Source: a phage. Taken from it: DNA of 64,000 nucleotides. The stretch lies in the sequence record PX880100.1; one strand, given 5' to 3'. The notes beneath the pieces are model-generated. The model was not told the DNA's origin and made no database searches. It was given only the letters and a program-made list of their open reading frames with translations. Numbering within the stretch: position 1 is the first letter of the stretch; each line of letters starts with the position of its first letter. Both the position numbers and the translations under genes were made by a program. This document shows positions 11,230 to 40,050 of this stretch, piece by piece.

Positions 11230-11514
11230 TTACGATTCCTTGAGTAAAGAAGCAAGTTCAGCATAGACTTTATCTAACTCAAAGCCGATGCGAAGAGACA
11301 CGTTTGTTTTCCGTTGTTTAAGTAACCACTCGGATATGTTAGGGATGCCAGCTAATCTATGCGGTACCACCCTACATAGCTTTTCCGAAGTGTCGTAAAC
11401 AGGAACTTTACGTTCCTTTACTGGGAACTTCCTTGTTTCCCATTTTTTATTCTTCACTGTCATTTCTAGCACCCAGCTCTGCCATTGCTTCATCATGCAT
11501 ATGTTTCTCCTCAT
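11230..11514 (-). CDS. hypothetical protein (94 aa)
   Basis: Track ORF overlapping the 3' end of the large ATPase gene; no motif recognised. Confidence 0.4.
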   Translation of the reverse strand: MRRNICMMKQWQSWVLEMTVKNKKWETRKFPVKERKVPVYDTSEKLCRVVPHRLAGIPNISEWLLKQRKTNVSLRIGFELDKVYAELASLLKES

Positions 11515-14236
11515 CAGTCATAAACTTATACGGGATTGGCATACACTCGATTTTACAATAGGTTCTGTACCAGTCTACAATATTCTCCGTGTTCATATCC
11601 TTACCAATACCCATCATACCAAGATACATTCTTGCATATTTTGGGTTAGCACTCTGACCTGTTTTAAGGAAGAAATCTTTCTTCTTACCTTTCAGAGCTT
11701 CTATGAATGGTTTGATAGTGACATTTGAACACTTCTTAATATCTTCCCAGAACATCTCGTGCATCTTATGGAAGAATGCAGCTCGATCATTCGGTTTATC
11801 CTTGATATATTGTTCAACATGCTCAACTGTTACATCTTTAATAGACTCAAGATGATAGTAGCGAACAAGAAGTAGTTTAGCTTCATACGCATCTGCATGG
11901 CGTGGAGCACAATAATCAGGAGTTGAATACAAAATAGCTTTGATTCGCTCTTCCGTATATTCCTTCCCAGCACCTTCGATAGTTCCCCAGCTTTCACTGA
12001 AAATATCAATAGTTGCACCCTGATCAAGCAAGTAATAACGTAAAGTACTAGTATAATTCCTAGACTCCAGCTCCCTGCGACGTGCGTATAATTGCTGTGC
12101 TAACTCCAGCCAACCTTCATCAATGTTATATTGCTCAGAACCTGCGGAGAATCCACTCGTAGATTTATCAATAAAATAATAAATGTTCTGAGCGCCACGG
12201 TCGCGCCTGATTGCTTGGAAACGCATGTTTGGCGCTTGGTTGCTGGTTCTAGTAATAACGAATACGTTATCAAAATAGTTGAAATCAACACCACTAGTTA
12301 CGGATGGGCTACATAATAAGCAATCAATTTGTTGGTCAATTAGCTCATTAGTTGTGTAATCCAGAATACGTCGAATATCCACATCAGATGTGGAGTTTGA
12401 GTGGATTTCCTTAACTAACGCACCCGTATTACGACGCAGCGCCATGCCCTTCTCATTCAGTTCATCAGGACCACAATCAGATACCAGAATAGATTTCTCA
12501 CCCATTTCTAGAGAAGTCTGAAGTGCAACCCAAATACTGGATTCATCCGGGAACTCATAAGCATGAGCTTTTGACAGCATCTTACGGTGATGATTATAAA
12601 ATGCTACTGGTTTATCAAACTCAATCAAAGAGCCATATGCTTCAATTGTTTCTGCACTAATATCCCCATCAGATAATATAATAATTTTTGCAGTTGCAAG
12701 AATGTCCCGAAGAACCTGAATACATTCACGACGTTGTTTAACAACCGGGGCGAATAATAGGTCATTCATTACAGCATCACATTCATCGATAAAGATTGCA
12801 TCAATTTGACCAATAAAACTCTTGAACTTATGCAAAGAGTGAATAGTTGTGGACATACGGTCAATAGCACCACGCTTAAAATTAAGCATATCTACAGACT
12901 TATCATATTGTCCTGCACTGAATTTCTTAGCATTTGAAGACACCAGCGCTCTAGTATTGGTAATTGCTAAGAAATTACCTTTAATAACTCCCGAATCTAA
13001 CCAACGCACAACCGCCGTAGTTTTACCTGTACCTAGACTTGCTTTTACAAAAGTCATATAACCTTCTGGTGGCACAGTATTTAATTTCAAGAAGTTATCA
13101 GTTTCTAGAGAATTAGTTTCTAGCTTTTTAAGTGGAATACCTTTTAAAACATCTGGTATATCACGTTTAGAATTATTAACAAATGCTTTCAGAGCCTGTT
13201 TACGACCATTATTAAAGTAATCTTGAATATTGCGACTATTATCTTTAGTTGCAATATATTCTGATAAGGCTGGACGAATTTCTTTTTCTAGCCATGCAAA
13301 ATCAACACCATCCTCCAAAGCTCTATGATAGAGTTTAGGGATAATACGTAGATACACCCCATCCTCAGCTTCTTCTAGTTCGCTGATAGTTTCCTCTACT
13401 TTATCAGAGGCAGCTTTTTTACCTTTAATTTGATCGAGTAAAGAGTAAAACTCCTCCTTAAACTCACCTCTAGTTGTTTCATAGTCAACCAGATTATTGG
13501 GTAAATTTACTTTAGAACCCTTAACAAATACCAGACGTGAAGCACCCTCCGCTTTAAACGGATCTACTATACCATCAATAAATAACGGATCTGCAAAATA
13601 ATGGAGCTGTACGGAAGAGTAATAAGCTAAGTCGGCAATATCAAAGCCATACTTTTGTCTACTACTTTCGTTGATAGATGTAAATAAGAATTTGATTTGA
13701 CCCTGAGTTACTTTAACATTAGATTCTAGTATTAAGTGCATTCGGATACCTGGTTTTAGCCCAGCCGAAGACGATGCATGAGCAATAAACCCTGCATCAA
13801 GAGGAAACATATCCTCACTAATACTATTTAACATTCTAATAATATGTCGAGCCATGCCAACAAGATCAAACTTGTTACAACCACCTGTATCTACAATACC
13901 ATCCACGTCCATTGCAATTATATGACTTGGGTTAGATACATTAAAGTTGCCCTTCTTACGTCGCACATTATTTTTAGGTGCAAGACATCGACCTCGTACC
14001 GCAACGATATGAGGGTCAGACGTTAAACGTCTCATAAGAGGAAGCATTTCTACTAGGGTTTGAGGATCAACTTCATCAATTACATCAAACTTGAAGGGCA
14101 TTGAAGCTGGTTTACCTTCAGGATGCTTTGAGGAAAATCTTTTAGCAAAAAGATAGTCTTCTGCTTTAACTTCTCGCCAATTGCCTGTGGCTAAATCGCG
14201 ATGAAATCCTGCATGACCTTGTAGGATTGAGAACAC
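11447..14236 (-). CDS. origin-binding/replication-initiation type P-loop helicase-like ATPase (T5 D2-like by size and position)
   Basis: Track ORF 11447..14314; Walker A SLGTGKTTAVV; GTG at 14236 preceded by ACAGGAG RBS is the likelier start; family assignment tentative. Confidence 0.6.
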   Translation of the reverse strand: MFSILQGHAGFHRDLATGNWREVKAEDYLFAKRFSSKHPEGKPASMPFKFDVIDEVDPQTLVEMLPLMRRLTSDPHIVAVRGRCLAPKNNVRRKKGNFNVSNPSHIIAMDVDGIVDTGGCNKFDLVGMARHIIRMLNSISEDMFPLDAGFIAHASSSAGLKPGIRMHLILESNVKVTQGQIKFLFTSINESSRQKYGFDIADLAYYSSVQLHYFADPLFIDGIVDPFKAEGASRLVFVKGSKVNLPNNLVDYETTRGEFKEEFYSLLDQIKGKKAASDKVEETISELEEAEDGVYLRIIPKLYHRALEDGVDFAWLEKEIRPALSEYIATKDNSRNIQDYFNNGRKQALKAFVNNSKRDIPDVLKGIPLKKLETNSLETDNFLKLNTVPPEGYMTFVKASLGTGKTTAVVRWLDSGVIKGNFLAITNTRALVSSNAKKFSAGQYDKSVDMLNFKRGAIDRMSTTIHSLHKFKSFIGQIDAIFIDECDAVMNDLLFAPVVKQRRECIQVLRDILATAKIIILSDGDISAETIEAYGSLIEFDKPVAFYNHHRKMLSKAHAYEFPDESSIWVALQTSLEMGEKSILVSDCGPDELNEKGMALRRNTGALVKEIHSNSTSDVDIRRILDYTTNELIDQQIDCLLCSPSVTSGVDFNYFDNVFVITRTSNQAPNMRFQAIRRDRGAQNIYYFIDKSTSGFSAGSEQYNIDEGWLELAQQLYARRRELESRNYTSTLRYYLLDQGATIDIFSESWGTIEGAGKEYTEERIKAILYSTPDYCAPRHADAYEAKLLLVRYYHLESIKDVTVEHVEQYIKDKPNDRAAFFHKMHEMFWEDIKKCSNVTIKPFIEALKGKKKDFFLKTGQSANPKYARMYLGMMGIGKDMNTENIVDWYRTYCKIECMPIPYKFMTDEEKHMHDEAMAELGARNDSEE

Positions 14237-14359
14237 AACAATACTCCTGTGTTGGAAATGAAATAAGTTTTCTTTAGGACTATTCAGAAAGAATAGAACA
14301 ACTGTTACTGTCAATTTCTCAACAAATTAATTGCAAATACTGAAGTGGGGTGGCAACTT

Positions 14360-14540
14360 CCACTTTCACGCTACACTGCCGCTTCACTATACCGCACAAA
14401 TCCTTGAGGATGGCCGCTAAGCCAGATTTGCTCACCTAATGCTTCATGTACTAGCTCATACTAGATGTAGTATACCTTACGTCATCACTTCTCAGAGTTT
14501 TTCACTCTTCCCGTCTCACTTCACAACCACCTCACACTAG
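14360..14540. repeat. iteron-like TCAC(T) direct repeats in ORF-free leader
   Basis: CTTTCACG, CTTCACTA, ATCACTTC, TTCACTCT, TCACTTCAC, CTCACACT recur at ~10-20 bp spacing in a GC-richer ORF-free stretch. Confidence 0.4.
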
Positions 14541-14735
14541 GTTGCTTCGAGGCCTTACCAGGGTTCCTACGGGATGTAGATCGCTAAGTATTCTATTAAT
14601 TATTTGTTTAAAAACCAACACGTAACAGTTAAAACAACCCTTAATGGGGCAGCCTAACTGTTCCGTATCGCGGATTGTAAACAAGAAAAATTAGCAAAAT
14701 CAATTTTTACTAATGTCTCTCGATTCAATATAAAT

Positions 14736-14764
14736 ATTATATCAAGATTTTGGGCATCCTGCAA
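14736..14764 (-). promoter_or_regulatory. early promoter driving ~500-nt leader and the large ATPase gene
   Basis: Reverse strand: TTGCAG -35, 17-bp spacer, TATAAT -10, ATTTATATTGAAT; approximate coordinates. Confidence 0.55.
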
Positions 14765-14840
14765 GTAAAATTTTCCGGATGGTGCTATCATTGGTCTTGA
14801 GTACGAGTAAAACCGAGCCAAAATGACTCGGTTATGTAGA

Positions 14841-15038
14841 TTAGACACTTAAAATACTTCTAATCTCTTCTATATACTTATCTACTTTTTTAGCATCTAC
14901 TTTACTTAGTTTTCCTATGTCAAAATCAGGATCAGTAAACATTCTAGCTATCTCTATCTCTAGAGACTTACTAATTTTCCCTGTAGTATTCCACTTAGAA
15001 ATCTTACCTTTTATCTTCCAAAATTCCTTATTCATCAT
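14841..15038 (-). CDS. hypothetical protein (65 aa)
   Basis: Track ORF co-oriented with neighbours. Confidence 0.45.
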   Translation of the reverse strand: MMNKEFWKIKGKISKWNTTGKISKSLEIEIARMFTDPDFDIGKLSKVDAKKVDKYIEEIRSILSV

Positions 15039-15118
15039 TTAACCCCGGAACATATATCCCAACACGGTTTAATTGTTCTTTAGCTTCTTTGAGAATATCT
15101 GGAGTGTACTCCCAAATA

Positions 15119-15421
15119 TCATCTTCCACCTGTAAAAAAATGGGGCGAACAACCATCATCCGGCACACGACATATGGCCAAACAACGTGGATGGAACAAA
15201 GAGAAATTTAGGGCAACAATTAAACCCATAGCAGACAATTCATTCCAATCCAATTCCCATTCCCCGGCGTATCCAGACAGGAAAACGCCAATGCATGGAT
15301 CATCTATTTGCTGCTCAGGAAAAGTGAAAGAGACTTGTCTTACCCCCAACCAACGTTGTAGCAGCTTCTCCGCACGTTTCACCAAACTAGGATCAATCTG
15401 ACGCCAATATACTTGTTCCAT
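15119..15421 (-). CDS. hypothetical protein (100 aa), paralog of the adjacent gene
   Basis: Shares DDPCIGVFLSGYAGEWELDWNELSAMGLIVALNFSLF with DEAPCIGLIVQVEEGLEEIVGWKELDEMGLVFALNYKLF in ORF 15431..15859. Confidence 0.55.
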   Translation of the reverse strand: MEQVYWRQIDPSLVKRAEKLLQRWLGVRQVSFTFPEQQIDDPCIGVFLSGYAGEWELDWNELSAMGLIVALNFSLFHPRCLAICRVPDDGCSPHFFTGGR

Positions 15422-15430
15422 TCTGCCTCC

Positions 15431-15859
15431 TTAAGCAGTTAAACCTGGGATCATATACCCGAAACGGCGAAGTTTTTGGATACCATCATTCACTTCTTCT
15501 GGTGAGTAAGACCAACCATAACGTTCATTAACCTGAAAACCAGGAGATTCACTAGTTTTATAGTTAACAACGAGGCGATGCTTAGCAGACATAAACAGCT
15601 TATAGTTTAACGCAAAAACTAAGCCCATTTCATCTAACTCTTTCCAGCCGACAATCTCTTCAAGGCCCTCTTCTACCTGAACAATTAAACCAATACAGGG
15701 GGCCTCATCAATATCATCTTTAAAAGCAAAGGAGATTTCGTTATTCTCACACCATATTTTCAAGGAGTTAATAGCCTCATTATACAGGCTAGCCGGGAGA
15801 GTACGCCAAAAGTTAACCAAAATTGGGTTAGCTTCTTTAGAGAAGACATTATTAAACAT
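15431..15859 (-). CDS. hypothetical protein (142 aa), paralog of the adjacent gene
   Basis: Track ORF; C-terminal half homologous to ORF 15119..15421 (tandem duplication). Confidence 0.55.
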   Translation of the reverse strand: MFNNVFSKEANPILVNFWRTLPASLYNEAINSLKIWCENNEISFAFKDDIDEAPCIGLIVQVEEGLEEIVGWKELDEMGLVFALNYKLFMSAKHRLVVNYKTSESPGFQVNERYGWSYSPEEVNDGIQKLRRFGYMIPGLTA

Positions 15860-33264: not shown

Positions 33265-33336
33265 GCCGTCCTAGTATAATTGGTATTATCAAGCCGTAAC
33301 TGGTGGAAGATGTAGGTTCGAATCCTACGGTCGGTA
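33265..33336 (+). ncRNA. tRNA-like element (T-arm and acceptor stem present, anticodon arm not foldable by eye)
   Basis: GTAGG-TTCGAAT-CCTAC T-arm and GCCGTCC/GGTCGGT acceptor pairing (one mismatch); no convincing anticodon stem; possible pseudo-tRNA. Confidence 0.3.
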
Positions 33337-33838
33337 AGAACTGGATAACTGATGCTTTTAACGTAAAAGCTTCCGAGGTTAGTTGCGCACTGCCTAAACC
33401 ACGCGGTAGTTGGTTCCAGACTAACCAACCAGTCTGCTGAATAGTTTTATTACGATTTAACTATGTCCAGGCTAAAGAAGAACTTTAGAAGGTATTCTAG
33501 GATAGTGAAGTTCTTTCTCCACATCGGAGTAGTTTTTCAAGCTATCCACAAAGTGGGAAATGCTGACATGAGAGATGTCACTAATGGTGCACAATAGCAC
33601 AGGTAATTCGCGATAATTCCTGTTGAGTAGCAGCAAAAGGCGGGAAGTCATGACCCCAAGCCTAACCGAGTCCTCAATATACCGCAGGACATAACCACTA
33701 AGTCACCCTGACTTAAACTGGAAAATAATAGACGTTACTGTATTTTGTCTTGAAATACTTAATGAGTGAGACTTATGACTCTCCCGGTATCGTCTGTATT
33801 TTTAAGAGTTTTTACGAGAGTTCTTAAAAATACTTAAA

Positions 33839-33913
33839 CGGGGTGTAGTCTAAGGGAGAGGCAGGAGTCTTCTAAATTCCTTTATGCAGGTTCGAATCCT
33901 GTCACCTCGGCCA
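33839..33913 (+). tRNA. tRNA-Arg (anticodon UCU)
   Basis: Acceptor CGGGGTG/CACCTCG, D-arm GTCT..AGGC, anticodon arm GGAGT-CTTCTAA-ATTCC, T-arm GCAGG-TTCGAAT-CCTGT, encoded CCA. Confidence 0.7.
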
Positions 33914-33947
33914 ATTTTATTAACTGTAACTAAAACAAAGGAAATAT

Positions 33948-34895
33948 ATGTTTAATACTAAAAATATGAAAGAACTGACTTCTGAGCAGAAAGTAATTCG
34001 TACTATTAAACGTTGGGGGATTGGTGCTGTAGTTGGTTTAGCAGGTTTAGTTCTAGCTCTTAACTCCTATACCGTTGTTCAAGACGGTACTGTTAAGACC
34101 CAGACTTTCTTGGGTAAAGTTGATCCTAATCCAGTATTACCTGGTTTCCATGTTGTAAATCCTTTTGCTTCTTTTGATACTTTTAGTACTAAAGATATTG
34201 CTCTAAAATTAGATAAACTTCAGGTTCCTAGTCAGGATAAGTTTAAATCCACTGTTGACCTGACTGTTATGTTGCAGTTTGATGGTTCTAAAGCACCGAT
34301 TAACCGTATTAATGCAGGTAATCAGGATCAAGCGTTAGACAAATATGTAACTGAAAAATTACTGTCTACTATTCGTGAGTTTGGTAAGTCTGTACCTAAA
34401 GCACAAGATTTATTTGATGCTAAAATTCAGGCTCAATTGCAAACTGCAATTCAACAGGAAGTTGAAGAGTATGCACGCCCATATGGTTACACAGTTAAGC
34501 AGGTGTTCCTTCAGGATATTACTTTGCCACCGGTAATCATGGAACAGGTACAGAATACCAAAGTTCGTGAAGAACAGGTTAATGCTGCTAAAGCTGAATT
34601 AGCTCGTGTTGAACAGGAAGCACAGCAAAAAGTTAAACAAGCAGAAGCAGATCGTGAAGCTCGCAACAACCAAGCTATTGCTAATGAACGTGACGCAGAT
34701 GCTAAACTGTACGCAGCTAAGAAAGAAGCTGAAGCTAACGCCGCATTGCAACGTACCATTACTCCTGAGATGATTCGCTGGAAGCAACTGGAAGTTGAAA
34801 TGATCCGTGCTCAGAAGTATCAAGGTGGTGTACCACAGACGGTAGTTGGTACTGGTTATGATGGCCAAATGATCATGGATATGCGTAATAAATAA
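33948..34895 (+). CDS. SPFH/band-7 (prohibitin/HflC-like) membrane protein
   Basis: 315 aa; N-terminal TM helix (WGIGAVVGLAGLVLALN), central SPFH-like region, C-terminal coiled coil rich in A/E/Q/K/R. Confidence 0.6.
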   Translation: MFNTKNMKELTSEQKVIRTIKRWGIGAVVGLAGLVLALNSYTVVQDGTVKTQTFLGKVDPNPVLPGFHVVNPFASFDTFSTKDIALKLDKLQVPSQDKFKSTVDLTVMLQFDGSKAPINRINAGNQDQALDKYVTEKLLSTIREFGKSVPKAQDLFDAKIQAQLQTAIQQEVEEYARPYGYTVKQVFLQDITLPPVIMEQVQNTKVREEQVNAAKAELARVEQEAQQKVKQAEADREARNNQAIANERDADAKLYAAKKEAEANAALQRTITPEMIRWKQLEVEMIRAQKYQGGVPQTVVGTGYDGQMIMDMRNK

Positions 34896-34919
34896 TACCC
34901 GCATGTAACATCTGAAGTA

Positions 34920-34954
34920 AGCCCTGCGTTTCCTGGAGAGCGCAGGGCTTTTCT
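34920..34954 (+). terminator. rho-independent terminator
   Basis: AGCCCTGCG...CGCAGGGCT hairpin followed by TTTCT; approximate. Confidence 0.6.
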
Positions 34955-34991
34955 ATATAATGTAATTATAAAACTAACTAGGAGATTAAAC

Positions 34992-35510
34992 ATGGGTGTT
35001 GATGAATTAACACAGCATCTTCTATCTAGAGGATTTGATGCAGATAAATATCATTGCTGGTTAAGTCCGGAAGGATGGCTAACAGTCCCGTTGTATGATT
35101 TCTCTGGGATGTTGAGGGGCTATCAAACTTATAATCCTTCTGCTCCAAAAGGTCATGGTAAGTATCCCTTTGAAGCTAAATATTTTACCTATTCTACTAC
35201 CCAGTGTGTATGGGGATTAGAAACTCTCAATGGAGATGAAAAAGTAGTATTGATCGCTGAATCTGTATTTAAGGCAGTTGCGTTACATAACGCTGGTTAT
35301 CCAGCCCTAGCAATGTTGGGTTCTTCTCCAGGAAAAGCGTTATTAAAGCAACTGAAATTATTACCTTTTAAATTGGTAGCTGTCGGGGATAACGATCCTG
35401 CGGGTGAAAAATTTGCTAGAAAATTAAACGGCTTTGTTTCTCCTGTAGATGTGGATGAGATGTCTACCGAAAACTTGAAAAATTTTCTTGCTATGAAGCT
35501 AAATTTCTAA
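34992..35510 (+). CDS. hypothetical protein (172 aa)
   Basis: Track ORF with GGAGA RBS. Confidence 0.5.
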   Translation: MGVDELTQHLLSRGFDADKYHCWLSPEGWLTVPLYDFSGMLRGYQTYNPSAPKGHGKYPFEAKYFTYSTTQCVWGLETLNGDEKVVLIAESVFKAVALHNAGYPALAMLGSSPGKALLKQLKLLPFKLVAVGDNDPAGEKFARKLNGFVSPVDVDEMSTENLKNFLAMKLNF

Positions 35511-35531
35511 TATAATATATCTTATAAATTC

Positions 35532-35620
35532 GGAAGAATAGCATAACGGTATTGCAGCAGATTGCTAATCTGTCGGTTTGAAATATAGCCTTGTGGGTTC
35601 GATTCCCACTTCTTCCGCCA
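35532..35620 (+). tRNA. tRNA-Ser (anticodon GCU), class II
   Basis: Acceptor GGAAGAA/TTCTTCC, 3-bp D-stem, anticodon arm GCAGA-TTGCTAA-TCTGT, long variable arm, T-arm GTGGG-TTCGATT-CCCAC, encoded CCA. Confidence 0.7.
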
Positions 35621-35626
35621 AATTCT

Positions 35627-35704
35627 GGTTCTCAAGCTCATATGGTATGAGCACCCAGCTCATAACTGGAAGGTACGTAGGTTCGAATCCTCGGGGAGCC
35701 ACCA
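35627..35704 (+). tRNA. tRNA with CAU anticodon (Met or Ile2 type)
   Basis: Acceptor GGTTCTC/GGGAGCC with G-U pairs, D-arm GCTC..GAGC, anticodon loop CTCATAA, encoded CCA; T-stem has two mismatches, so fold is uncertain. Confidence 0.5.
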
Positions 35705-35922
35705 ACTTAATTAGGGGATTACAAGTGGAATTATACATAGTTTATGTTGTGTTTATTCAAGATAGAGAATACCCTGATGAATATAAAAAAGGATATAGGT
35801 TAGCCAGAGCTACCTCTGAAGTCCAAGCTATGGATAAAGTGGCAGATTATATGATTACGGTAGAAAACGTACACTATATCGACTACCTTGAGGCCTCAAA
35901 AGTAATTGACTAAGGAGACTAT

Positions 35923-36108
35923 ATGTCCAAGTTTCAAGAACTCAAGCAAGAGCTAGAAGAATGTGCCTGCCCTGAGTGTAGGGGAATTGGTGAAAGTTCT
36001 GATGCAGAAGCAGGAGATACTTTTTGCAATATCTGGGTTTGCCCAAATTGCAATGGTACAGGTATTAATCCTAACTGTGGTATTTCTCTAGATATTGAAA
36101 GAGGGTAA
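35923..36108 (+). CDS. small zinc-ribbon-like protein (61 aa)
   Basis: Track ORF; CxxC...CxxC cysteine pairs (CACPECRG, CPNCNG); AAGGAG RBS. Confidence 0.5.
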   Translation: MSKFQELKQELEECACPECRGIGESSDAEAGDTFCNIWVCPNCNGTGINPNCGISLDIERG

Positions 36109-36209
36109 TATCTGTGAAACTAAAAGATTATTATATTGGTTGGTTTGTGGGACTAGTAGTAGGATTTTCACTAGGCTATAATATGTATCAACTAATAAAC
36201 TGATTACAC

Positions 36210-36286
36210 GGGGGTGTAATCGAATTGGCATAGGTACTGGACTTAAAATTCAGGTTTTGTGGGTTCGAATCCCACCACCCCTACCA
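36210..36286 (+). tRNA. tRNA with UAA anticodon (Leu-type anticodon, short variable arm)
   Basis: Acceptor GGGGGTG/CACCCCT, anticodon arm CTGGA-CTTAAAA-TTCAG, T-arm GTGGG-TTCGAAT-CCCAC, encoded CCA; D-arm not cleanly resolved. Confidence 0.5.
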
Positions 36287-36301
36287 AATTAAGGAAATAA
36301 G

Positions 36302-36469
36302 ATGTATAGACCTCCACCTCCGCCAACACGTCGTTCTAGAGAAGTTATCCTCATGGAATTGACTAAAAACTTCAAGGCAACTCTTGAAGATAGAGATTTA
36401 GGCACGGATGAAGACATTGATTTTATTTGTAGACTATTAAAGATGAAACTGGAGAAACAACATGGCTAA
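36302..36469 (+). CDS. hypothetical small protein (55 aa, below track cutoff)
   Basis: ATG at 36302 with AAGGAAATAAG RBS right after the tRNA; proline-rich N-terminus; overlaps the next ORF start. Confidence 0.5.
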   Translation: MYRPPPPPTRRSREVILMELTKNFKATLEDRDLGTDEDIDFICRLLKMKLEKQHG

Positions 36470-36668
36470 TCCTGAAATTACCGCACAACGTTTCATGCTT
36501 AAAGGCATGATTGCTGAAGCAGGTATGACTCAAGAGGTTGCAGACTTTCATAAGCAAATTCTTGATATTATAACTCTAGCTAAAGAGACTGGAGAAAAAG
36601 AGCACGCAGCAGCAATTATGGCTATATCTCTTATTAGTCTAGACTTGGCTGAAGAATCTGGAGTTTAG
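36462..36668 (+). CDS. hypothetical protein (68 aa)
   Basis: Track ORF. Confidence 0.5.
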   Translation: MANPEITAQRFMLKGMIAEAGMTQEVADFHKQILDIITLAKETGEKEHAAAIMAISLISLDLAEESGV

Positions 36669-36698
36669 CTCCTCCAAATAGAATTTTTAAAAATGTAC

Positions 36699-36728
36699 TT
36701 GCCTTTTGCTTTAAATTTCTGATATAAT
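36699..36728 (+). promoter_or_regulatory. early promoter
   Basis: TTGCCT, 18-bp spacer, TATAAT, then AGTTATATAAATTGATGAAGGAG; approximate. Confidence 0.55.
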
Positions 36729-36758
36729 AGTTATATAAATTGATGAAGGAGTTAACTA

Positions 36759-37034
36759 ATGCAAAATCGTGTTATAGCAACTGGTATTGAAAGTGCAATC
36801 TGTAAATCCTGGGAAGGCTGGGAAGGTGAGATTGAATGGCTTTATTTCTATGATGTAGAACTTCTGCCGGAAGTTAAAGCTAAATGTGTTGAAGCTGGAA
36901 TGGCTCCAGATGCAAAAGCTGATATTGATATTTCAATGTCTGAACTTAAAGGCCGTGTAATTACTGTTAGTGATGAGGGTGAAGAAGTTTTCGAACTTCC
37001 ATTCTCCTTAACTGTCACTCCTAAGTTCGACTAA
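36759..37034 (+). CDS. hypothetical protein (91 aa)
   Basis: Track ORF downstream of promoter. Confidence 0.5.
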   Translation: MQNRVIATGIESAICKSWEGWEGEIEWLYFYDVELLPEVKAKCVEAGMAPDAKADIDISMSELKGRVITVSDEGEEVFELPFSLTVTPKFD

Positions 37035-37070
37035 CTAATACAGCACTGAGCAAGTTCTTTAAAATTTGAC

Positions 37071-37099
37071 TTGCTCAGTGCCTTAAAACTTGGTATAAT
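37071..37099 (+). promoter_or_regulatory. early promoter feeding a tRNA block
   Basis: TTGCTC, 17-bp spacer, TATAAT; followed by a 14-bp inverted-repeat leader hairpin and tRNAs; approximate. Confidence 0.5.
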
Positions 37100-37161
37100 A
37101 GTTATCTAATTTGGAAACATATTTAAAAGTGTTTAAACTAGTATTTGAATACTTTTAAATA

Positions 37162-37267
37162 TGTTGGATTAGTATCGTAGAGGTAGCGAAGCAGACTGTA
37201 AATCTGCCGACTCGGAAGGGTCTCGGGTGGTTCGACTCCATCATCCATCATCCATCATCCAACACCA
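37162..37267 (+). tRNA. tRNA-Tyr-like (anticodon GUA), class II, atypically long; boundaries uncertain
   Basis: Perfect anticodon arm GCAGA-CTGTAAA-TCTGC, D-stem TCG/CGA, T-arm GGTGG-TTCGACT-CCATC; 3' region carries ATCCATC-ATCCATC-ATCCAAC then ACCA; GTTGGAT pairs with the last copy. Confidence 0.5.
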
Positions 37268-37274
37268 AATTTAA

Positions 37275-37351
37275 GTCCTGTTAGACAAACTGGTAAAGTC
37301 ACTACCCTTTCAAGGTAGGATTTGCGGGTTCGATCCCCGCACAGGACGCCA
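37275..37351 (+). tRNA. tRNA-Glu (anticodon UUC)
   Basis: Acceptor GTCCTGT/ACAGGAC, anticodon arm CTACC-CTTTCAA-GGTAG, T-arm GCGGG-TTCGATC-CCCGC, encoded CCA. Confidence 0.8.
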
Positions 37352-37360
37352 ATTTCTGCA

Positions 37361-37436
37361 TTCCTAGAGTGTTACTGGACAGCATGTCGGTCTCCAAAAT
37401 CGTACGGTCTAGGTTCGAGTCCTAGTAGGTTTGCCA
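37361..37436 (+). tRNA. tRNA-Trp-like (anticodon CCA), acceptor pairing unresolved
   Basis: Anticodon arm TCGGT-CTCCAAA-ATCGT and T-arm CTAGG-TTCGAGT-CCTAG with encoded CCA; spacing to neighbouring tRNAs fits, but 5' acceptor strand could not be paired by eye. Confidence 0.4.
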
Positions 37437-37442
37437 AAATTT

Positions 37443-37517
37443 GCACCTTTAGCTGAGATGGATTAGCGCTTGCCTGAAGAGCTTGAGAGGTTCGTTCGAT
37501 ACGAACAGGGTGCACCA
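37443..37517 (+). tRNA. tRNA-Phe-like (anticodon GAA)
   Basis: Acceptor GCACCTT/AGGGTGC, D-arm GCTG..TAGC, T-arm GTTCG-TTCGATA-CGAAC, encoded CCA; anticodon loop CTGAAGA but stem has two U-U mismatches. Confidence 0.55.
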
Positions 37518-37519
37518 AA

Positions 37520-37807
37520 TTGAGGGGGCTGCTGATGCATCCTGAAAACTTCTTTATTTACTGCGCTGATAAGTCGCTGAAACGTAGAATTAACAAAGTC
37601 TATCATTATCGTGCTAGTCAACAGCCTTATGTATATGCTTTTGACGGTGATCACATTCCATTAGAACAATTATCTTGTGATTACATGATATTGAAGAACT
37701 TTGACGAGACAAAGATCTCAAGCGTTCATAATCGACAGAATCCCTTAACGTGGAAATATAAGAAGAAAAAGAAAGGCATCAAATTCTTAAAAAATGTAGT
37801 TGCTTAG
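37520..37807 (+). CDS. hypothetical protein (95 aa)
   Basis: Track ORF starting 3 nt after the tRNA; TTG start. Confidence 0.45.
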   Translation: MRGLLMHPENFFIYCADKSLKRRINKVYHYRASQQPYVYAFDGDHIPLEQLSCDYMILKNFDETKISSVHNRQNPLTWKYKKKKKGIKFLKNVVA

Positions 37808-37828
37808 TTTCCAAAAGTTCTGTATAAT
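37800..37828 (+). promoter_or_regulatory. PN25-type early promoter
   Basis: TTGCTT, 17-bp spacer, TATAAT, then AATTACATAAATTGAACTGGAG; approximate. Confidence 0.55.
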
Positions 37829-37857
37829 AATTACATAAATTGAACTGGAGAAGCAAC

Positions 37858-38082
37858 ATGACAGAACAAGAATTGAATGAACGTAAGCTGGTAATGCTCC
37901 GCTTACTAAACATTTTCTCTGGTATGGATGGGGGTATTGACTTTGTTCATCTACGTTCTTTTGTAGAAGAAGCAGAAGGTGAATCTATCACTAAAATCCT
38001 TAAACATATGGGTTTACTATTAGATGCTGCTGGTGTAGCAACGGAATATAACCTCGAAGATCTACCGGAGCGTATTAAATGA
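37858..38082 (+). CDS. hypothetical protein (75 aa)
   Basis: ATG at 37858 with GGAG RBS; track lists an extended frame from 37840. Confidence 0.5.
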   Translation: MTEQELNERKLVMLRLLNIFSGMDGGIDFVHLRSFVEEAEGESITKILKHMGLLLDAAGVATEYNLEDLPERIK

Positions 38083-38267
38083 AGAAGCCAAAAGCTAAAT
38101 TAGTTAAGTTCGACTGTTGTGACACAGAAATCTTATTCACTAAGTTTGGTGAATTTAAGATGTGTGAATGTGGAACATGTGGTTATGATCATGGTGATGG
38201 ATATTATTGCAGGACTCTTGGACCAGCAAATCTAATCCACTTTTCATGGCCGGAAGATAAAGAATAA
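38079..38267 (+). CDS. small zinc-ribbon-like protein (62 aa)
   Basis: Track ORF; cysteine clusters FDCCDTE and CECGTCGYDHGDGYYC; 4-nt overlap with upstream gene. Confidence 0.5.
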   Translation: MKKPKAKLVKFDCCDTEILFTKFGEFKMCECGTCGYDHGDGYYCRTLGPANLIHFSWPEDKE

Positions 38268-38269
38268 TT

Positions 38270-38344
38270 GCATCCTTGTCCGAGTGGCTTAGGTGACGGT
38301 CTGCAAAATCGTCTAGGTTGGTTCAATTCCAGCAGGGTGCTCCA
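38270..38344 (+). tRNA. tRNA-Cys (anticodon GCA)
   Basis: Acceptor GCATCCT/AGGGTGC, anticodon arm ACGGT-CTGCAAA-ATCGT, T-arm GTTGG-TTCAATT-CCAGC, encoded CCA. Confidence 0.7.
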
Positions 38345-38350
38345 AATTCA

Positions 38351-38433
38351 GGGTCGTTAGCCAAGCGGTTTGGCGGTGGACTGTTAATCCATGTCGAAAG
38401 ACAACGTAGGTTCGAATCCTACACGGCCCGCCA
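38351..38433 (+). tRNA. tRNA-Asn (anticodon GUU) with an enlarged (~13-nt) variable region
   Basis: Acceptor GGGTCGT/ACGGCCC, D-arm GCCA..TGGC, anticodon arm GTGGA-CTGTTAA-TCCAT, T-arm GTAGG-TTCGAAT-CCTAC, encoded CCA. Confidence 0.65.
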
Positions 38434-38535
38434 AATTCTGTGTAGAGTTAAGTAAACCGGTAGCCAACCAGCTATCATTGCTGACATCGAATTCAGCCAC
38501 AGATACCATTTTCATTAATAACTGAGGAAACAAGC

Positions 38536-38721
38536 ATGTCCAAGAATGTAATTGCGCAGCTAGAAGTTCATCGTGATAGCACTATCAACAATATTGAAGT
38601 TGAGAAGAAATACATCGAAGAACTTAAACATGATATACTAGTAAGTCTCAACCGTCTTAATGTACGAAAAGAGTTTCTTAAAGAACTTAATGCAGCTATT
38701 GAAAAACTCAAAGCTGAGTAA
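38536..38721 (+). CDS. hypothetical protein (61 aa)
   Basis: Track ORF with GAGGAAAC RBS. Confidence 0.5.
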   Translation: MSKNVIAQLEVHRDSTINNIEVEKKYIEELKHDILVSLNRLNVRKEFLKELNAAIEKLKAE

Positions 38722-38730
38722 ATGAATTAT

Positions 38731-38807
38731 GCGACCGGGGCTGGCTTGGTAATGGTACTCCCCTGTCACGGGAGGGAATGTGGGTTCAAATCCCATCGGT
38801 CGCGCCA
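38731..38807 (+). tRNA. tRNA-Asp (anticodon GUC)
   Basis: Acceptor GCGACCG/CGGTCGC, anticodon arm CTCCC-CTGTCAC-GGGAG, T-arm GTGGG-TTCAAAT-CCCAT, encoded CCA. Confidence 0.8.
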
Positions 38808-38824
38808 AATAAGGTAGGTTAGCT

Positions 38825-38983
38825 ATGGAACGTAGAGAGTTTACTCCAGAAGAGATAGAGCAGATAAAAGAATCTGCTACGAAAAATGCTAGAATATCTC
38901 TGTCACTAGAAGGTATCATTATTAGTGATGTAAACTTTGAAAAAATCAAAGCCATAGCTGATGAACTGGAAAAAGTAATTTAA
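38825..38983 (+). CDS. hypothetical small protein (52 aa, below track cutoff)
   Basis: ATG at 38825 with AAGGTAGG RBS between two tRNAs; acidic helical peptide. Confidence 0.45.
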   Translation: MERREFTPEEIEQIKESATKNARISLSLEGIIISDVNFEKIKAIADELEKVI

Positions 38984-38984
38984 T

Positions 38985-39060
38985 ACATCCATAGCTCAAT
39001 GGTTAGAGCTACCGCCTCTTAAGCGGAGGGTTCTAGGTTCAAGTCCTAGTGGGTGTACCA
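38985..39060 (+). tRNA. tRNA-Lys (anticodon CUU)
   Basis: Acceptor ACATCCA/TGGGTGT, D-arm GCTC..GAGC, anticodon arm CCGC-CTCTTAA-GCGG, T-arm CTAGG-TTCAAGT-CCTAG, encoded CCA. Confidence 0.65.
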
Positions 39061-39086
39061 AACTAAACTAGCACGAGAAATATACT

Positions 39087-39434
39087 ATGCGTAATGCTAA
39101 AGAAGAGTTGTTACTTGCCTTAAAAAATACTAATTCTGAAGTTAAGTGTATTAAAATAGAATTCGGGTATTATGGGGACAAAAAAGTTTGGGTATTACCT
39201 CTGGGGTATACAGAAGAAGATATTGGGGATTTTCTTAATAACCTAGACTTTGAGTATGATTCTGGTTATGGTGGACAACTACTTTATGGTAATGTATGGT
39301 TTGCCGATGGAACCTGGCTAGAACGTGGGGAATATGATGGAGCTGAGTGGTGGGAATACAAGGCTACTCCAGCAATTCCAGAGGAATGCCGAACAATTAA
39401 TGGTGAAGTAGATAATACTTTAAGGTTAAACTAA
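39087..39434 (+). CDS. hypothetical protein (115 aa)
   Basis: Track ORF. Confidence 0.5.
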   Translation: MRNAKEELLLALKNTNSEVKCIKIEFGYYGDKKVWVLPLGYTEEDIGDFLNNLDFEYDSGYGGQLLYGNVWFADGTWLERGEYDGAEWWEYKATPAIPEECRTINGEVDNTLRLN

Positions 39435-39438
39435 TAAA

Positions 39439-39538
39439 ATTTCAGTGCAGAACACGGAGCTAGCAATTCGGAAGTGCTGACTCATGATAAGCTGCCTATG
39501 TACTTGCAAAGCGGTCGTGTCCAAGACTCGGACTCTTG
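39439..39538 (+). ncRNA. structured ORF-free element closed by a ~10-bp long-range stem
   Basis: TTCAGTGCAG at the 5' end pairs with CTTGCACTGAA at the 3' end, enclosing internal hairpins (GTCC-AAGACTC-GGAC); no ORF. Confidence 0.35.
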
Positions 39539-39556
39539 CACTGAAAACAATCAAAC

Positions 39557-39684
39557 ATTCTAGCGTGGTTGATGGGGAAACCAGCTTGGCTAGGGCAGAA
39601 GCTCGTTCGATTCGAGTGAAAGAATGGTTCTCGTAAGTCCGCACAAGTGATAATAGGTTCGAGTCCTGTCTAGAATGACACTAT
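39557..39684 (+). ncRNA. tRNA-like element of atypical length (~128 nt)
   Basis: ATTCTAG...CTAGAAT acceptor-like pairing, D-arm-like GGTT-GATGGGGA-AACC, two T-arm-like motifs; too long for a canonical tRNA. Confidence 0.3.
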
Positions 39685-39826
39685 AAAGTTTACTTATTAT
39701 GTAGGTTCCGATAGATCGGCGGGTCTATTCTGGCATTTAAGAGAGGTCTCGCAAACTTCTTTGTCAGCCGTGGGGTTGGTAGCCTCCAGGTGGCCTACAC
39801 AATAAGTAAATTTATTAAAAATTCAT

Positions 39827-39855
39827 TTGCTATTTCTCTTAATTATCTGTATAAT
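39827..39855 (+). promoter_or_regulatory. PN25-type early promoter
   Basis: TTGCTA, 17-bp spacer, TATAAT, then ATATTTTATAAAGTGAAGAGAAGG; approximate. Confidence 0.55.
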
Positions 39856-39887
39856 ATATTTTATAAAGTGAAGAGAAGGAAAGCAAA

Positions 39888-40046
39888 ATGAAACACAAGA
39901 TAGCTCAAGTTTTTATGGCATTATGGTGTATGCCAATAGCTATAACAGCATTTAATCTAGATACTTTTACTATAGAAGAAAAATGTATCGGATTAGTTAG
40001 TGGCTTTAGTATGCTTGGCTTATCTTTGTTGTGGTTGAAGAAATAA
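39888..40046 (+). CDS. hypothetical small membrane peptide (52 aa, below track cutoff)
   Basis: ATG at 39888 with GAAGGAAAG RBS after the promoter; hydrophobic sequence; stops 4 nt before tRNA-Pro. Confidence 0.5.
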   Translation: MKHKIAQVFMALWCMPIAITAFNLDTFTIEEKCIGLVSGFSMLGLSLLWLKK

Positions 40047-40050
40047 TATT

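What the first reader, a model, noticed from the sequence alone, without database searches (positions are those of the whole stretch)
14237..14840. ORF-free ~600-bp leader with iteron-like repeats upstream of the origin-binding-type ATPase gene
Upstream (in transcription sense) of the ~930-aa ATPase gene lies a ~600-bp stretch with no credible ORF, visibly GC-richer than its surroundings, carrying repeated TCAC(T) motifs at ~10-20 bp spacing on one strand, and preceded by its own promoter (~14736..14764). Iteron-like repeats beside a gene for an origin-binding-type protein are the usual signature of a replication origin; alternatively the long leader may be a regulatory or structured RNA.
Basis: partly seen in the sequence, partly recalled or inferred. 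Interest (0 to 1): 0.55.

Follow-up and report, generated by a model that had tools for sequence, protein, structure and literature searches.

The report
Large structured leader RNA in T5-like phages
The "iteron-like" stretch is not a repeat-type replication origin; it encodes a roughly 490-nt, intricately folded RNA, absent from Rfam, that T5 and its enterobacterial relatives transcribe just ahead of a key DNA-replication gene, and whose function is unknown.

Summary
The window comes from a T5-like phage. The interval holds, on the minus strand, a terminator (14833-14805), an early sigma-70 promoter (-35 at 14764-14759, TGn plus -10 at 14744-14736) and a ~490-nt untranslated leader. The leader runs to the GTG start (14236) of the gene that records annotate as "replication origin binding protein", primase or helicase.

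There is no credible ORF, the promoter sits at the stated coordinates, and TCAC is enriched. But there are no true iterons. The TCAC enrichment is missing from T5 itself and from other relatives. Only the core is GC-rich.

What is conserved is RNA secondary structure. Compensatory base changes support about 15 helices within and between lineages. These include a long closing helix, a helix that takes four different sequences, and a three-way junction capped by an invariant CUUAGCGG loop. A covariance model built from T5-type sequences alone ranks the syntenic site first in four of the five other lineage variants searched. Rfam 15 has no match, and no paper on this RNA was found.

Function is unknown. 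I favour a leader or partner RNA of the replication gene, possibly excised at its closing helix. An RNA-dependent (R-loop) origin is not excluded. An iteron origin is unlikely.

The parts
14805..14833 (-). Rho-independent terminator of the upstream operon: hairpin AACCGAGTCA/TGGCTCGGTT followed by a T run.
   Evidence: Inverted repeat I12, arms 14811-14820 and 14824-14833. The homologous T5 site is annotated as a terminator.
14736..14764 (-). Early sigma-70 promoter: -35 TTGCAG at 14764-14759, 17-nt spacer, TG at 14744-14743, -10 TATAAT at 14741-14736. The expected transcription start is near 14729.
   Evidence: Read. Conserved in all relatives. T5 annotates a promoter at 58999-59073.
14237..14735 (-). 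The untranslated leader, i.e. the structured RNA. RNA index i corresponds to window coordinate 14736-i.
   Evidence: MFE is -138.6 kcal/mol (z -2.8) on this strand against -118.1 on the other.
14674..14729 (-). P1: a 5' hairpin with outer stem GAGAGA/UUUUCU and inner stem AUUAGUAAAA/UUUUGCUAAU.
   Evidence: Predicted in every lineage. The stems differ in DU_PP_V, My1 and the Klebsiella phage but still pair.
14644..14669 (-). Near-invariant junction segment GAUACGGAACAGUUAGGCUGCCCCAU. It includes a small hairpin, GG-AA-CAGU-UAG-GCUG-CC.
   Evidence: The core ACGGAACAGUUnGGCUGCCCC is exact in the 30 viral contigs found by the pattern scan and in the T5-like and Pectobacterium leaders aligned here. 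The Klebsiella phage has ACAGAACAGUCCGGCUGCUAC.
14598..14631 (-). P2, 5' strand: the long AU-rich closing helix of the core domain.
   Evidence: Pairs with 14299-14331. Cross-lineage changes: CUGUUAC/GUAACAG, CUAUUAC/GUAAUAG; the DU_PP_V and My1 versions (GAUUAUUAUACAG/CUGUAUAAUAAUU and GGUUAUUAUAUAAC/GUUAUAUAAUAACC) were read by eye from the sequences.
14299..14331 (-). P2, 3' strand.
   Evidence: As for the P2 5' strand.
14574..14579 (-). P3, 5' strand (CUACAU).
   Evidence: Pairs with 14371-14376 (GUGUAG). Four versions occur in relatives: CUACAU/GUGUAG, CUGCGU/GCGCAG, CUGUGU/GCACAG and CUACAC/GUGUAG.
14371..14376 (-). P3, 3' strand (GUGUAG).
14482..14573 (-). P4-P5-P6 arm. P4 is CCCGU/ACGGG, P5 is GCAACC/GGUUGU, P6 is AGAGU-GAAAA-ACUCU. 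A conserved CUGAGAAGUG(AUGA) follows. Most of the GUGA (= TCAC) motifs lie here.
   Evidence: Compensatory versions in L011, DU_PP_V and My1. The GUGA positions fall mostly in loops and junctions.
14383..14478 (-). Three-way junction P7/P8/Ha/Hb. It carries the invariant loop motif CUUAGCGG at 14414-14421.
   Evidence: Covariance model R2 gives 42.9 bits, E 2e-7, the only hit in the 64-kb window. R1, built from T5-type sequences only, also places its only reported match in the window (E 0.99) here. 22 of 28 pairs covary. Independent 60-nt folds give the same hairpin in 10 of 11 enterobacterial-phage sequences.
14344..14364 (-). 3' hairpin AGUGG/CCACU with the conserved loop GUUGCCA.
   Evidence: A compensatory U-A to G-C change in L024. 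The loop is conserved in DU_PP_V and My1.
14280..14296 (-). Small hairpin CUAUUC/GAAUAG between the core and the ribosome-binding site. No U-tract follows it, so it is not a terminator.
   Evidence: No terminator-like site was found in 13500-15500.
14234..14248 (-). Shine-Dalgarno AGGAG (14248-14244) and the GTG start codon (14236-14234) of the replication gene.
   Evidence: The start aligns with the annotated T5.108 start and with ATG starts in DU_PP_V, My1 and the Klebsiella phage.
11447..14236 (-). 929-aa replication protein. The N-terminal ~380 aa are uncharacterised. They are followed by a helicase/Rep-like ATPase domain.
   Evidence: PHROG 3712 'replication origin binding' covers the full length. 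Pfam Herpes_ori_bp covers residues 394-533 only. NCBIfam CyRepA1 covers 393-722. PDB matches to UL9-type proteins cover the same short stretch.

Best explanation
The interval is a transcription unit for a large structured RNA.

An early sigma-70 promoter drives a ~490-nt untranslated transcript that continues into the primase/helicase-like replication gene. The transcript folds into a 5' hairpin (P1), a near-invariant junction segment, and a ~330-nt core. The core is closed by a long AU-rich helix (P2). Inside it are P3, a P4-P6 arm, a three-way junction capped by the invariant loop CUUAGCGG, and a 3' hairpin with the loop GUUGCCA. The TCAC 'repeats' are the DNA image of GUGA motifs, which sit mostly in loops and junctions of one sequence variant of this RNA.

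Shown: the fold is under selection as RNA on this strand. It is conserved in T5-like, Pectobacterium, Klebsiella and Proteus members of Demerecviridae.

Inferred: the RNA acts together with, or on the expression of, the replication gene it always precedes. This could be as a protein-binding leader (autogenous control or RNP partner). It may work after the core is released by cleavage of P2, in the way rRNA is excised from its flanking stem.

My estimates: structured functional RNA ~0.9; cis or partner role with the replication gene ~0.4; stand-alone trans-acting RNA ~0.3; R-loop or primer origin ~0.15.
For: Conservation of the locus:
- The same ~470-770-nt non-coding gap precedes the gene in T5, Pectobacterium DU_PP_V and My1, Klebsiella, Providencia and Proteus phages.

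Covariation:
- T5-type leaders (18 sequences): 151 pairs, 99.7% paired. 12 pairs changed on both sides, against 0-1 when the partners are slid; 0 of 500 shuffles reach this.
- Window-type leaders (9 sequences): 6 double changes against 0-1.
- Cross-lineage anchored alignment: 34 double changes against 8-14, and 90% paired against 37-52%.
- Three-way junction aligned by covariance model across 5 lineage variants (the two T5-like variants, DU_PP_V, My1 and a Klebsiella phage): 22 of 28 pairs covary, and 92% are paired against 35-45%.

Homology:
- A model trained on T5-type sequences only puts its best hit at the syntenic site in the window, in a window-type relative, and in the DU_PP_V, Klebsiella and My1 loci, although the core is only ~42% identical.
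- Model R2 finds the Proteus site.

Strand:
- Many G-U pairs, and G-U to A-U or G-C changes, fit only the sense strand. The MFE is -138.6 on this strand against -118.1 on the other.

Other:
- No conserved ORF.
- The sequence is not host-derived: no match in 5,426 complete E. coli genomes.
Against: - No expression data were found. No T5 transcriptome paper was located.
- No conserved expression platform is evident. The predicted accessibility of the ribosome-binding site equals the RNA-wide average, and its pairing partners differ between lineages. No terminator follows the core in T5-like phages.
- The individual covariance-model E-values for distant lineages are weak (0.03-2), and one false hit scored equally well.
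- The covariance-model alignment is fitted to the structure, which inflates the pair counts.
- Homology to the 600-1060-nt upstream regions of the Vibrio and Aeromonas relatives is not established.
- Synteny with the gene could simply reflect the conserved gene order of the family.
Confidence: 0.6

Rival explanations
1. Stand-alone non-coding RNA gene. The core is an independent, probably processed, stable RNA that acts in trans, for example in host take-over or counter-defence, or as a cofactor of another machine. It only shares a promoter with the replication gene.
For: - The core is a self-contained domain closed by a helix of at least ~20 bp (P2) and lies 60-70 nt from the ribosome-binding site.
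- The ribosome-binding site is not consistently sequestered.
- In Proteus phages a consensus TTGACA-17-TATAAT promoter lies between the RNA and the gene.
- In Vibrio 70E35-1 two terminator-like hairpins separate the upstream non-coding region from the gene. The same appears to hold in Aeromonas TS3, by eye from the sequence.
- Its size and branching resemble large phage-associated RNAs of unknown function.
Against: - No terminator or clear 3' end exists in T5-like phages.
- Processing at P2 is only inferred.
- The position directly upstream of the same gene is kept wherever the RNA is recognisable.
- No target is known.
Confidence: 0.3
2. Transcription-dependent replication origin. The promoter transcript forms a persistent RNA-DNA hybrid (R-loop) or a primer next to the gene for the initiator, primase or helicase. 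This would resemble ColE1 RNA II or the T4 ori(uvsY)/ori(34) origins. The RNA fold is selected because it directs hybrid formation.
For: - A strong early promoter and a long folded untranslated RNA sit beside the replication-initiator-like gene.
- The T5 locus lies at 48.5% of the genome.
- A 1976 electron-microscopy study reported multiple internal origins in T5, as cited.
- The RNA strand is G-rich relative to C.
Against: - Recombitron editing across the T5 genome showed a uniform strand preference. [quoted passage not shown]
- There is no unwinding element or DnaA box.
- The skew minimum of the window is at ~20 kb.
- The G over C excess is the same in the neighbouring genes.
- Invariant loops and junctions suggest recognition of the folded RNA rather than hybrid formation.
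Confidence: 0.15
3. Iteron-type origin. The TCAC(T) repeats are double-stranded DNA binding sites for the neighbouring 'origin-binding' protein.
For: - TCAC is enriched 4- to 5-fold and is strand-asymmetric.
- The neighbouring gene carries a UL9-like or plasmid-Rep-like helicase domain.
Against: - There is no repeat unit longer than 5 nt with more than two copies.
- The spacing is irregular, 5-53 nt.
- The enrichment is absent from T5, rutana, DU_PP_V, My1 and the Klebsiella phage. Yet the protein is 90-95% identical between the two T5-like variants, and about 100% identical over its C-terminal half.
- The motifs fall mostly in loops and junctions of a covarying RNA fold.
- The 'origin-binding' name comes from the helicase motifs only.
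Confidence: 0.03
4. Metabolite- or signal-sensing cis-regulator (a riboswitch-like or attenuator leader) that controls the replication gene.
For: - It lies in the 5' UTR.
- It has invariant junction nucleotides.
- In T5-like phages a segment (UAACUGUUAC) can pair either with the upstream AACAGUUA or with the distal P2 strand.
- Terminators follow the region in some distant relatives.
Against: - It is far larger than known riboswitches.
- The alternative pairing is not conserved in DU_PP_V or My1.
- No conserved terminator or ribosome-binding-site sequestration was found.
- No Rfam riboswitch match was found.
Confidence: 0.08

Closest known systems
Large phage- and bacteria-associated structured RNAs of unknown function (GOLLD, ROOL, HEARO-type 'ornate' RNAs in Rfam)
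   Same: It is several hundred nucleotides long, multi-branched, supported by covariation, and has invariant nucleotides in loops and junctions. It is carried by a tRNA-rich phage genome (24 tRNA genes in the window).
   Different: No Rfam model matches, even at E up to 10. It has a fixed position as the 5' leader of one particular gene. It is restricted, as far as shown, to Demerecviridae of enterobacteria.
ColE1 RNA II pre-primer and the T4 ori(uvsY)/ori(34) R-loop origins
   Same: A promoter-driven untranslated RNA of ~500 nt lies next to replication functions. In ColE1 the fold of the RNA matters for function (own knowledge).
   Different: No hybrid-forming G/C tracts or unwinding element were seen. 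The transcript runs on into an ORF. Published strand-bias data for T5 do not show a mid-genome origin.
Iteron origins bound by primase-helicase or initiator proteins (P4 ori/crr with the alpha protein, plasmid iterons, HSV oriS with UL9)
   Same: A short motif recurs beside a gene with a UL9-like or Rep-like helicase domain.
   Different: There are no iteron-length units, the motif is not conserved in relatives, and the sequence is constrained as a folded RNA.
Long autoregulatory 5' UTRs and translational operators (E. coli rne leader, T4 gene 32 and gene 43 operators)
   Same: A structured leader lies in front of a nucleic-acid enzyme gene, which makes binding by its own product plausible (own knowledge of those systems).
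   Different: It is much larger and more branched than the T4 operators. There is no evidence of ribosome-binding-site occlusion. No protein binding has been tested.
Pre-rRNA processing stems cut by RNase III
   Same: Sequences flanking a compact structured core pair over at least ~20 bp (P2).
   Different: Cleavage is purely inferred. No RNase III site can be predicted from the sequence.

Membership tests
Iteron-type replication origin | Three or more direct repeats of roughly 17-22 bp (initiator binding sites) in regular phase | tested here: not met
   Only two 2-copy families of 10-15 nt were found. TCAC is a 4-nt motif at spacings of 5-53 nt.
Iteron-type replication origin | Repeats conserved in relatives that have a near-identical initiator | tested here: not met
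   GUGA/TCAC counts are 8 in the window against 2 in T5, 2 in DU_PP_V, 1 in My1 and 3 in the Klebsiella phage. The protein is 90-95% identical between the two T5-like variants.
Iteron-type replication origin | Adjacent AT-rich unwinding element and/or DnaA boxes | tested here: not met
   40-nt windows of at least 80% AT occur only at the promoter, in the first ~35 nt of the transcript (P1), and near 14851. No DnaA-box-like site lies inside the interval.
Iteron-type replication origin | Replication starts here, and the initiator binds this DNA | not testable with these tools
   Only indirect evidence is available: the T5 strand-bias data point to replication from one end, and the skew minimum of the window is at ~20 kb.
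Any curated Rfam family (including GOLLD, ROOL, RNase P, group I/II introns, riboswitches, C/D-box sRNAs) | Covariance-model score at or above the family's gathering threshold | tested here: not met
   No family reaches its threshold in the window. The best sub-threshold hit is sR17, at 17.6 bits against a threshold of 36, E 0.17. Nothing was found for T5, DU_PP_V, My1, or the Klebsiella, Providencia, Proteus, Vibrio or Aeromonas loci.
Evolutionarily conserved structured RNA (general criterion) | Base pairs maintained by compensatory changes, more often than in controls | tested here: met
   Pairs changed on both sides, observed against slid controls: 12 against 0-1, 6 against 0-1, 34 against 8-14, and 22 of 28 against 4-12.
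Evolutionarily conserved structured RNA (general criterion) | Strand specificity (G-U pairs on the transcribed strand) | tested here: met
   There are more than 20 invariant G-U pairs, plus G-U to A-U or G-C changes, on the sense strand. The MFE is -138.6 against -118.1 kcal/mol.
Evolutionarily conserved structured RNA (general criterion) | The RNA is actually transcribed | not testable with these tools
   The promoter is predicted and is annotated in T5. No transcriptome data were found.
Riboswitch or attenuator-type cis-regulator | A conserved expression platform: an intrinsic terminator, or sequestration of the ribosome-binding site, coupled to the sensor | tested here: not met
   No terminator lies between the core and the gene in the window. 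P(unpaired) of the ribosome-binding site is 0.27-0.48 in 7 of 8 lineages, about the RNA-wide mean, and its partners differ between lineages.
R-loop or primer-RNA origin (ColE1 RNA II, T4 oriF/oriG type) | A promoter whose transcript forms a persistent hybrid and primes DNA synthesis | not testable with these tools
   The promoter is present. Hybrid formation and priming cannot be assessed. The indirect evidence is mixed.

The most novel reading that the evidence does not exclude
The RNA is a dedicated partner of the phage primase/helicase-like replication protein. It would be a folded RNA that the protein recognises through the invariant UUAG(C)G loops and the junction segment, and it would nucleate or prime initiation of T5-type DNA replication. 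That would make it an RNA-II-like or RNP-type initiator in a lytic phage. Its sequence comes in exchangeable variants that co-segregate with the N-terminal half of the protein.
Probability: 0.15. Interest if true: 0.9.

Novelty: new member of a known kind. Interest (0 to 1): 0.68.

Why it matters
T5 is a classical model phage, and its relatives are widely isolated and used for biocontrol. How T5 replication starts is still unclear.

A ~490-nt RNA with about 15 covariation-supported helices lies directly in front of the replication initiator/primase/helicase gene. It is present in several hundred sequenced phages, and I found it in neither Rfam nor the papers searched. That makes it a concrete, genetically tractable object. 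Deleting it, or making compensatory mutations in it, in T5 would show whether it controls the replication gene, acts as a separate RNA, or takes part in initiation.

It also warns that the 'hypothetical protein' ORFs annotated inside this interval in many GenBank records are probably spurious. The 'replication origin binding' label of the neighbouring gene rests on helicase motifs only.

Tried and rejected
- Rfam at gathering and at permissive thresholds, on the window and on 11 related loci: no family.
- RNase P-like, group I/II intron and tmRNA readings, considered because of short motif resemblances (ACAGAAC..CCGGCU, GGCUUA): dropped because no model scores.
- C/D-box sRNA hit (sR17): sub-threshold noise caused by a CUGA...GUGAUGA motif.
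- Structure of the protein's N-terminal domain. Single-sequence AlphaFold failed (pLDDT 37). The homologue search returned only two fragments. Pfam and PDB profile searches of the N-terminal alignment gave nothing. Whether this domain is a primase therefore remains untested.
- Conserved small ORF in the leader: rejected.
- Conserved sequestration of the ribosome-binding site: not found.
- Second promoter between the RNA and the gene. The TATAAT boxes in DU_PP_V and My1 lie inside the P2 helix, so they are doubtful. Only Proteus has a full consensus promoter.
- Vibrio and Aeromonas upstream regions. The model did not hit them, the MFE z-scores were mixed (-3.3 to +1.9), and there was too little diversity for covariation.
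- Host origin of the sequence: no match in E. coli genomes.
- Literature on a T5 origin, the T5 transcriptome or T5.108: nothing specific was found. The 1976 electron-microscopy paper is not held.
Full report
**What the region is**

The window is a T5-like phage of the family Demerecviridae. The 700 bp around the finding are 98-99% identical to Escherichia and Salmonella phages such as KS_S14, Spc35 and LmqsSP1, and 535 phage records hold at least part of it. Genes around the finding lie on the minus strand.

Read on that strand, the interval contains three things:
- A hairpin followed by a T run, which ends the upstream operon (14833-14805; inverted repeat I12).
- A promoter with -35 TTGCAG (14764-14759), a 17-nt spacer and an extended -10 TGaTATAAT (14744-14736).
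- 499 nt without a credible ORF, running to AGGAG (14248-14244) and a GTG start at 14236.

The T5 reference record annotates a terminator, a promoter and then nothing until the start of T5.108, 'replication origin binding', at the homologous positions. The mechanical ORF list extends the gene to a TTG at 14314. The start at 14236 is the one that aligns with the annotated starts in T5, and with the ATG starts in Pectobacterium and Klebsiella phages.

**Checking the observation**

- 'ORF-free' holds. The sense-strand ORFs are 25-65 aa, mostly start with GTG or TTG, and their positions differ in every lineage.
- The TCAC enrichment is real: 8 copies on the + strand against 0 GTGA. The window average is 1.7 per 604 nt, the shuffle P is 0.001-0.006, and this is the densest stretch of the whole window.
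- The repeats are not iterons. The repeat finder finds only two 2-copy families of 10-15 nt, and the TCAC spacings run from 5 to 53 nt.
- 'GC-richer' is true only of the core 14330-14590 (0.47, 97th percentile). The whole interval equals the window mean.
- The 'origin-binding' character of the gene rests on its helicase motifs. Pfam Herpes_ori_bp covers residues 394-533 only. PDB UL9-type proteins match the same short stretch. NCBIfam gives a better match, CyRepA1 plasmid replication protein, over residues 393-722. Different records call the protein origin-binding protein, primase or helicase. I could not determine the fold of its N-terminal 380 residues.

**The long non-coding gap is a family trait**

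T5 has the same ~497-nt leader. Related phages have the following gaps upstream of the same gene:

| Phage group | Gap upstream of the gene |
|---|---|
| Pectobacterium DU_PP_V and My1 (another subfamily) | 474-487 nt |
| Klebsiella Sugarlandvirus | ~487 nt |
| Providencia | ~615 nt |
| Proteus | ~767 nt |

Vibrio and Aeromonas relatives have 600-1060 nt without credible genes at the same place. A few metagenomic relatives lack the gap.

Within the T5-like phages the first ~110 nt and the last ~90 nt of the leader are more than 90% identical. The central ~300 nt come in two variants that are only ~42% identical. The window's variant ('type B') is closer to the Pectobacterium phages (51-56%) than to T5 ('type A'). 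Two islands are invariant in the T5-like and Pectobacterium leaders: ACGGAACAGUUnGGCUGCCCC and CUUAGCGG (the Klebsiella phage differs in the first).

**The conserved feature is RNA secondary structure**

- *T5-type leaders.* In the alignment of 18 distinct sequences, RNAalifold predicts 151 pairs in 18 helices, and 99.7% of cells are paired. 12 pairs have changes on both sides, against 0-1 when the 3' partners are slid by 1-3 columns. None of 500 shuffles reaches the observed values.
- *Window-type leaders.* The 9-sequence alignment gives 6 double changes against 0-1.
- *Across lineages.* An alignment anchored on the invariant motifs gives 34 pairs with double changes against 8-14, and 90% paired against 37-52%.
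- *P3.* This helix takes four forms: CUACAU/GUGUAG, CUGCGU/GCGCAG, CUGUGU/GCACAG and CUACAC/GUGUAG.
- *The helix flanking CUUAGCGG.* Its sequence differs among the lineages compared (for example AAAUCU/GGAUUU, AUAGAAUC/GGUUCUAU, UCAGAAUC/GGUUCUGA, GUGCGGGU/ACCCUGCAC, AUACGGG/CUCGUAU, CCACCU/AGGUGG and CCACGUAU/AUAUCGUGG). Independent folds of 60-nt windows return the same hairpin in 10 of 11 enterobacterial-phage sequences.
- *Model test.* A covariance model was built only from T5-type sequences of the three-way junction. It places its only reported match in the window (E 0.99), and the best hit in each of four of the other loci searched (type B relative, DU_PP_V, Klebsiella, My1), at the syntenic site. 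The E-values are individually weak (0.03-1.6), and one false hit scored equally well.
- *Model-aligned junction.* On the resulting alignment of five lineage variants, 22 of 28 pairs covary. 92% are paired, against 35-45% for the slid controls. This alignment is fitted to the structure, which favours it.
- *Second model.* The model built from that alignment scores the window at 42.9 bits (E 2e-7). This is the only hit in 64 kb, though a close relative of the window was in the training set. It also finds the Proteus site at E 0.19.
- *Strand.* The many G-U pairs, the G-U to A-U or G-C exchanges and the lower free energy of the minus-strand transcript show that the constraint acts on the sense strand.

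**Anatomy in the window** (RNA index i = 14736 - i)

- P1 hairpin: 14729-14674.
- Near-invariant junction segment: 14669-14644.
- P2, a long AU-rich closing helix: 14631-14598 pairs with 14331-14299.
- P3: 14579-14574 pairs with 14376-14371.
- P4-P6 arm and the conserved CUGAGAAGUG: 14573-14482.
- Three-way junction P7/P8/Ha/Hb, with the CUUAGCGG loop at 14421-14414: 14478-14383.
- Hairpin with the loop GUUGCCA: 14364-14344.
- A small hairpin (14296-14280), followed by the ribosome-binding site.

The eight TCAC motifs are GUGA on the RNA. They lie mostly in loops and junction strands of the type B core.

**Why not an iteron origin**

The GUGA/TCAC enrichment is confined to type B T5-like leaders (6-8 copies). 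T5 and rutana have 2, DU_PP_V 2, My1 1 and the Klebsiella phage 3. The proteins of type A and type B phages are nonetheless 90-95% identical overall, and about 100% identical over their C-terminal halves.

There is no DnaA box and no AT-rich element apart from the promoter. The cumulative GC-skew minimum of the window is at ~20 kb, where transcription changes direction.

For T5 itself, a retron-recombineering study found a uniform strand preference at sites across the genome. [quoted passage not shown] This contrasts with the 1976 electron-microscopy report of multiple internal origins (PMC10055335; PMC3632103). None of this excludes a minor or early origin here. But it removes the positive evidence for one.

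**What it does**

This is not shown, and several leads were negative.

- Rfam 15 has no match for any lineage.
- The sequence is not in E. coli genomes.
- I found no paper on it.
- A simple riboregulator is not supported. No terminator follows the core in T5-like phages. The predicted accessibility of the ribosome-binding site equals the RNA-wide average, with different partners in different lineages. The alternative pairing of UAACUGUUAC with either the upstream AACAGUUA or the distal P2 strand is not conserved outside T5-like phages.
- The core looks like an autonomous domain. It is closed by a helix of at least ~20 bp and lies 60-70 nt from the ribosome-binding site. In Proteus phages a consensus promoter lies between it and the gene. 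In Vibrio 70E35-1 and Aeromonas TS3 (by eye), terminator-like hairpins separate the upstream region from the gene.
- The two core variants co-segregate with variants of the N-terminal half of the protein. Adjacency in one recombination block could explain this.

I therefore commit to the following. It is a functional structured RNA (about 0.9). Most likely it works with, or on, the replication gene it precedes, as a protein-binding leader or RNP partner, possibly after excision at P2 (about 0.4). A trans-acting stand-alone RNA (about 0.3) and an RNA-II-like or R-loop role in initiation (about 0.15) are the live rivals. A riboswitch-like sensor (below 0.1) and an iteron origin (about 0.03) are unlikely.

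**Comparison and novelty**

The element works like a large structured leader or non-coding RNA. It is not a member of any curated RNA family tested, and it fails the defining tests of an iteron origin. I class it as a new member of a known kind, namely a large conserved structured RNA of phages. It is notable because it sits in a classical model phage, next to the gene at the centre of an unresolved replication-initiation question, and because it is directly testable by T5 genetics.

**Limits**

- No expression or probing data are available.
- The covariance-model E-values for distant lineages are weak.
- Homology of the Vibrio and Aeromonas regions is unproven.
- Large computational surveys of phage RNAs may already list this region without a name. 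I could not check their supplements.

Noticed in passing
L013:235-332, L021:521-618, L036:285-382 (also L051, L064, L075; the SP1a and HildyBeyeler hits show the same ~97-bp extra length); the site corresponds to window ~14690: Some relatives carry an identical 97-98-nt insertion just after the P1 hairpin, bordered by a duplicated TTTTTCTT. It occurs in both leader variants (type A and type B), is 99-100% identical between them, and folds on its own (-22.5 kcal/mol). Within the loci held, it is found only at this site. It may be a small mobile or recombining module.
   Followed up: partly
window 14299-14631 versus T5 L001:4200-4530; protein residues 1-550: The RNA core exists in two variants that are ~42% identical. 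They co-segregate with variants of the N-terminal half of the replication protein: 88-92% identity, and only 66% over residues 350-400. The C-terminal half is ~100% identical. This looks like a recombination block, or possibly RNA-protein co-variation.
   Followed up: partly
window 33265-43887, + strand: A cluster of 24 tRNA genes, typical of T5-like phages.
   Followed up: no
window ~20000: The cumulative GC skew has its minimum here, where genes switch from the minus to the plus strand. A second reversal lies near 60 kb.
   Followed up: no
window 14482-14495 (RNA CUGAGAAGUGAUGA): A D-box-like CUGA next to a C-box-like GUGAUGA, which could form a kink-turn-type motif. It explains the sub-threshold Rfam hits to archaeal C/D-box sRNAs (sR17, 17.6 bits). 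CUGAGAAGUG is conserved in DU_PP_V and My1, and the Klebsiella phage has AAGAAGUG.
   Followed up: partly
L005:316-768 (phage mar003J3); also L008, L023, L026: In mar003J3 a homing-endonuclease gene lies just upstream of the leader promoter. mar003J3 and three other relatives share a variant of the first ~10 transcribed nucleotides (ATTCCCAT--AAA instead of ATTTATATTGAAT).
   Followed up: no
L041:1282-1345 and L042:~1180-1262: In Vibrio 70E35-1 and Aeromonas TS3 the long upstream non-coding region ends in terminator-like hairpins. A shared sequence follows (UUUUUUGCACyCU...AUUUC...ACUUACGU) ahead of the replication gene. This suggests a further conserved control element in those lineages.
   Followed up: no
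L042:~425-470 (Aeromonas phage TS3): GACGGAAC, CUUAGCGG and UUAGGCUCC occur together within about 40 nt and fold into one hairpin capped by the CUUAGCGG loop. The same two motifs are separate in T5-like RNAs. This hints that the Aeromonas RNA is a distant homologue.
   Followed up: partly
window 14237-14840 in GenBank relatives: Several records annotate one to four 'hypothetical protein' CDSs inside this interval (for example SaI_NFG_5581, Baret and GEC_vB_N5). Given the covarying RNA fold and the lack of conserved ORFs, these are probably over-predictions.
   Followed up: partly
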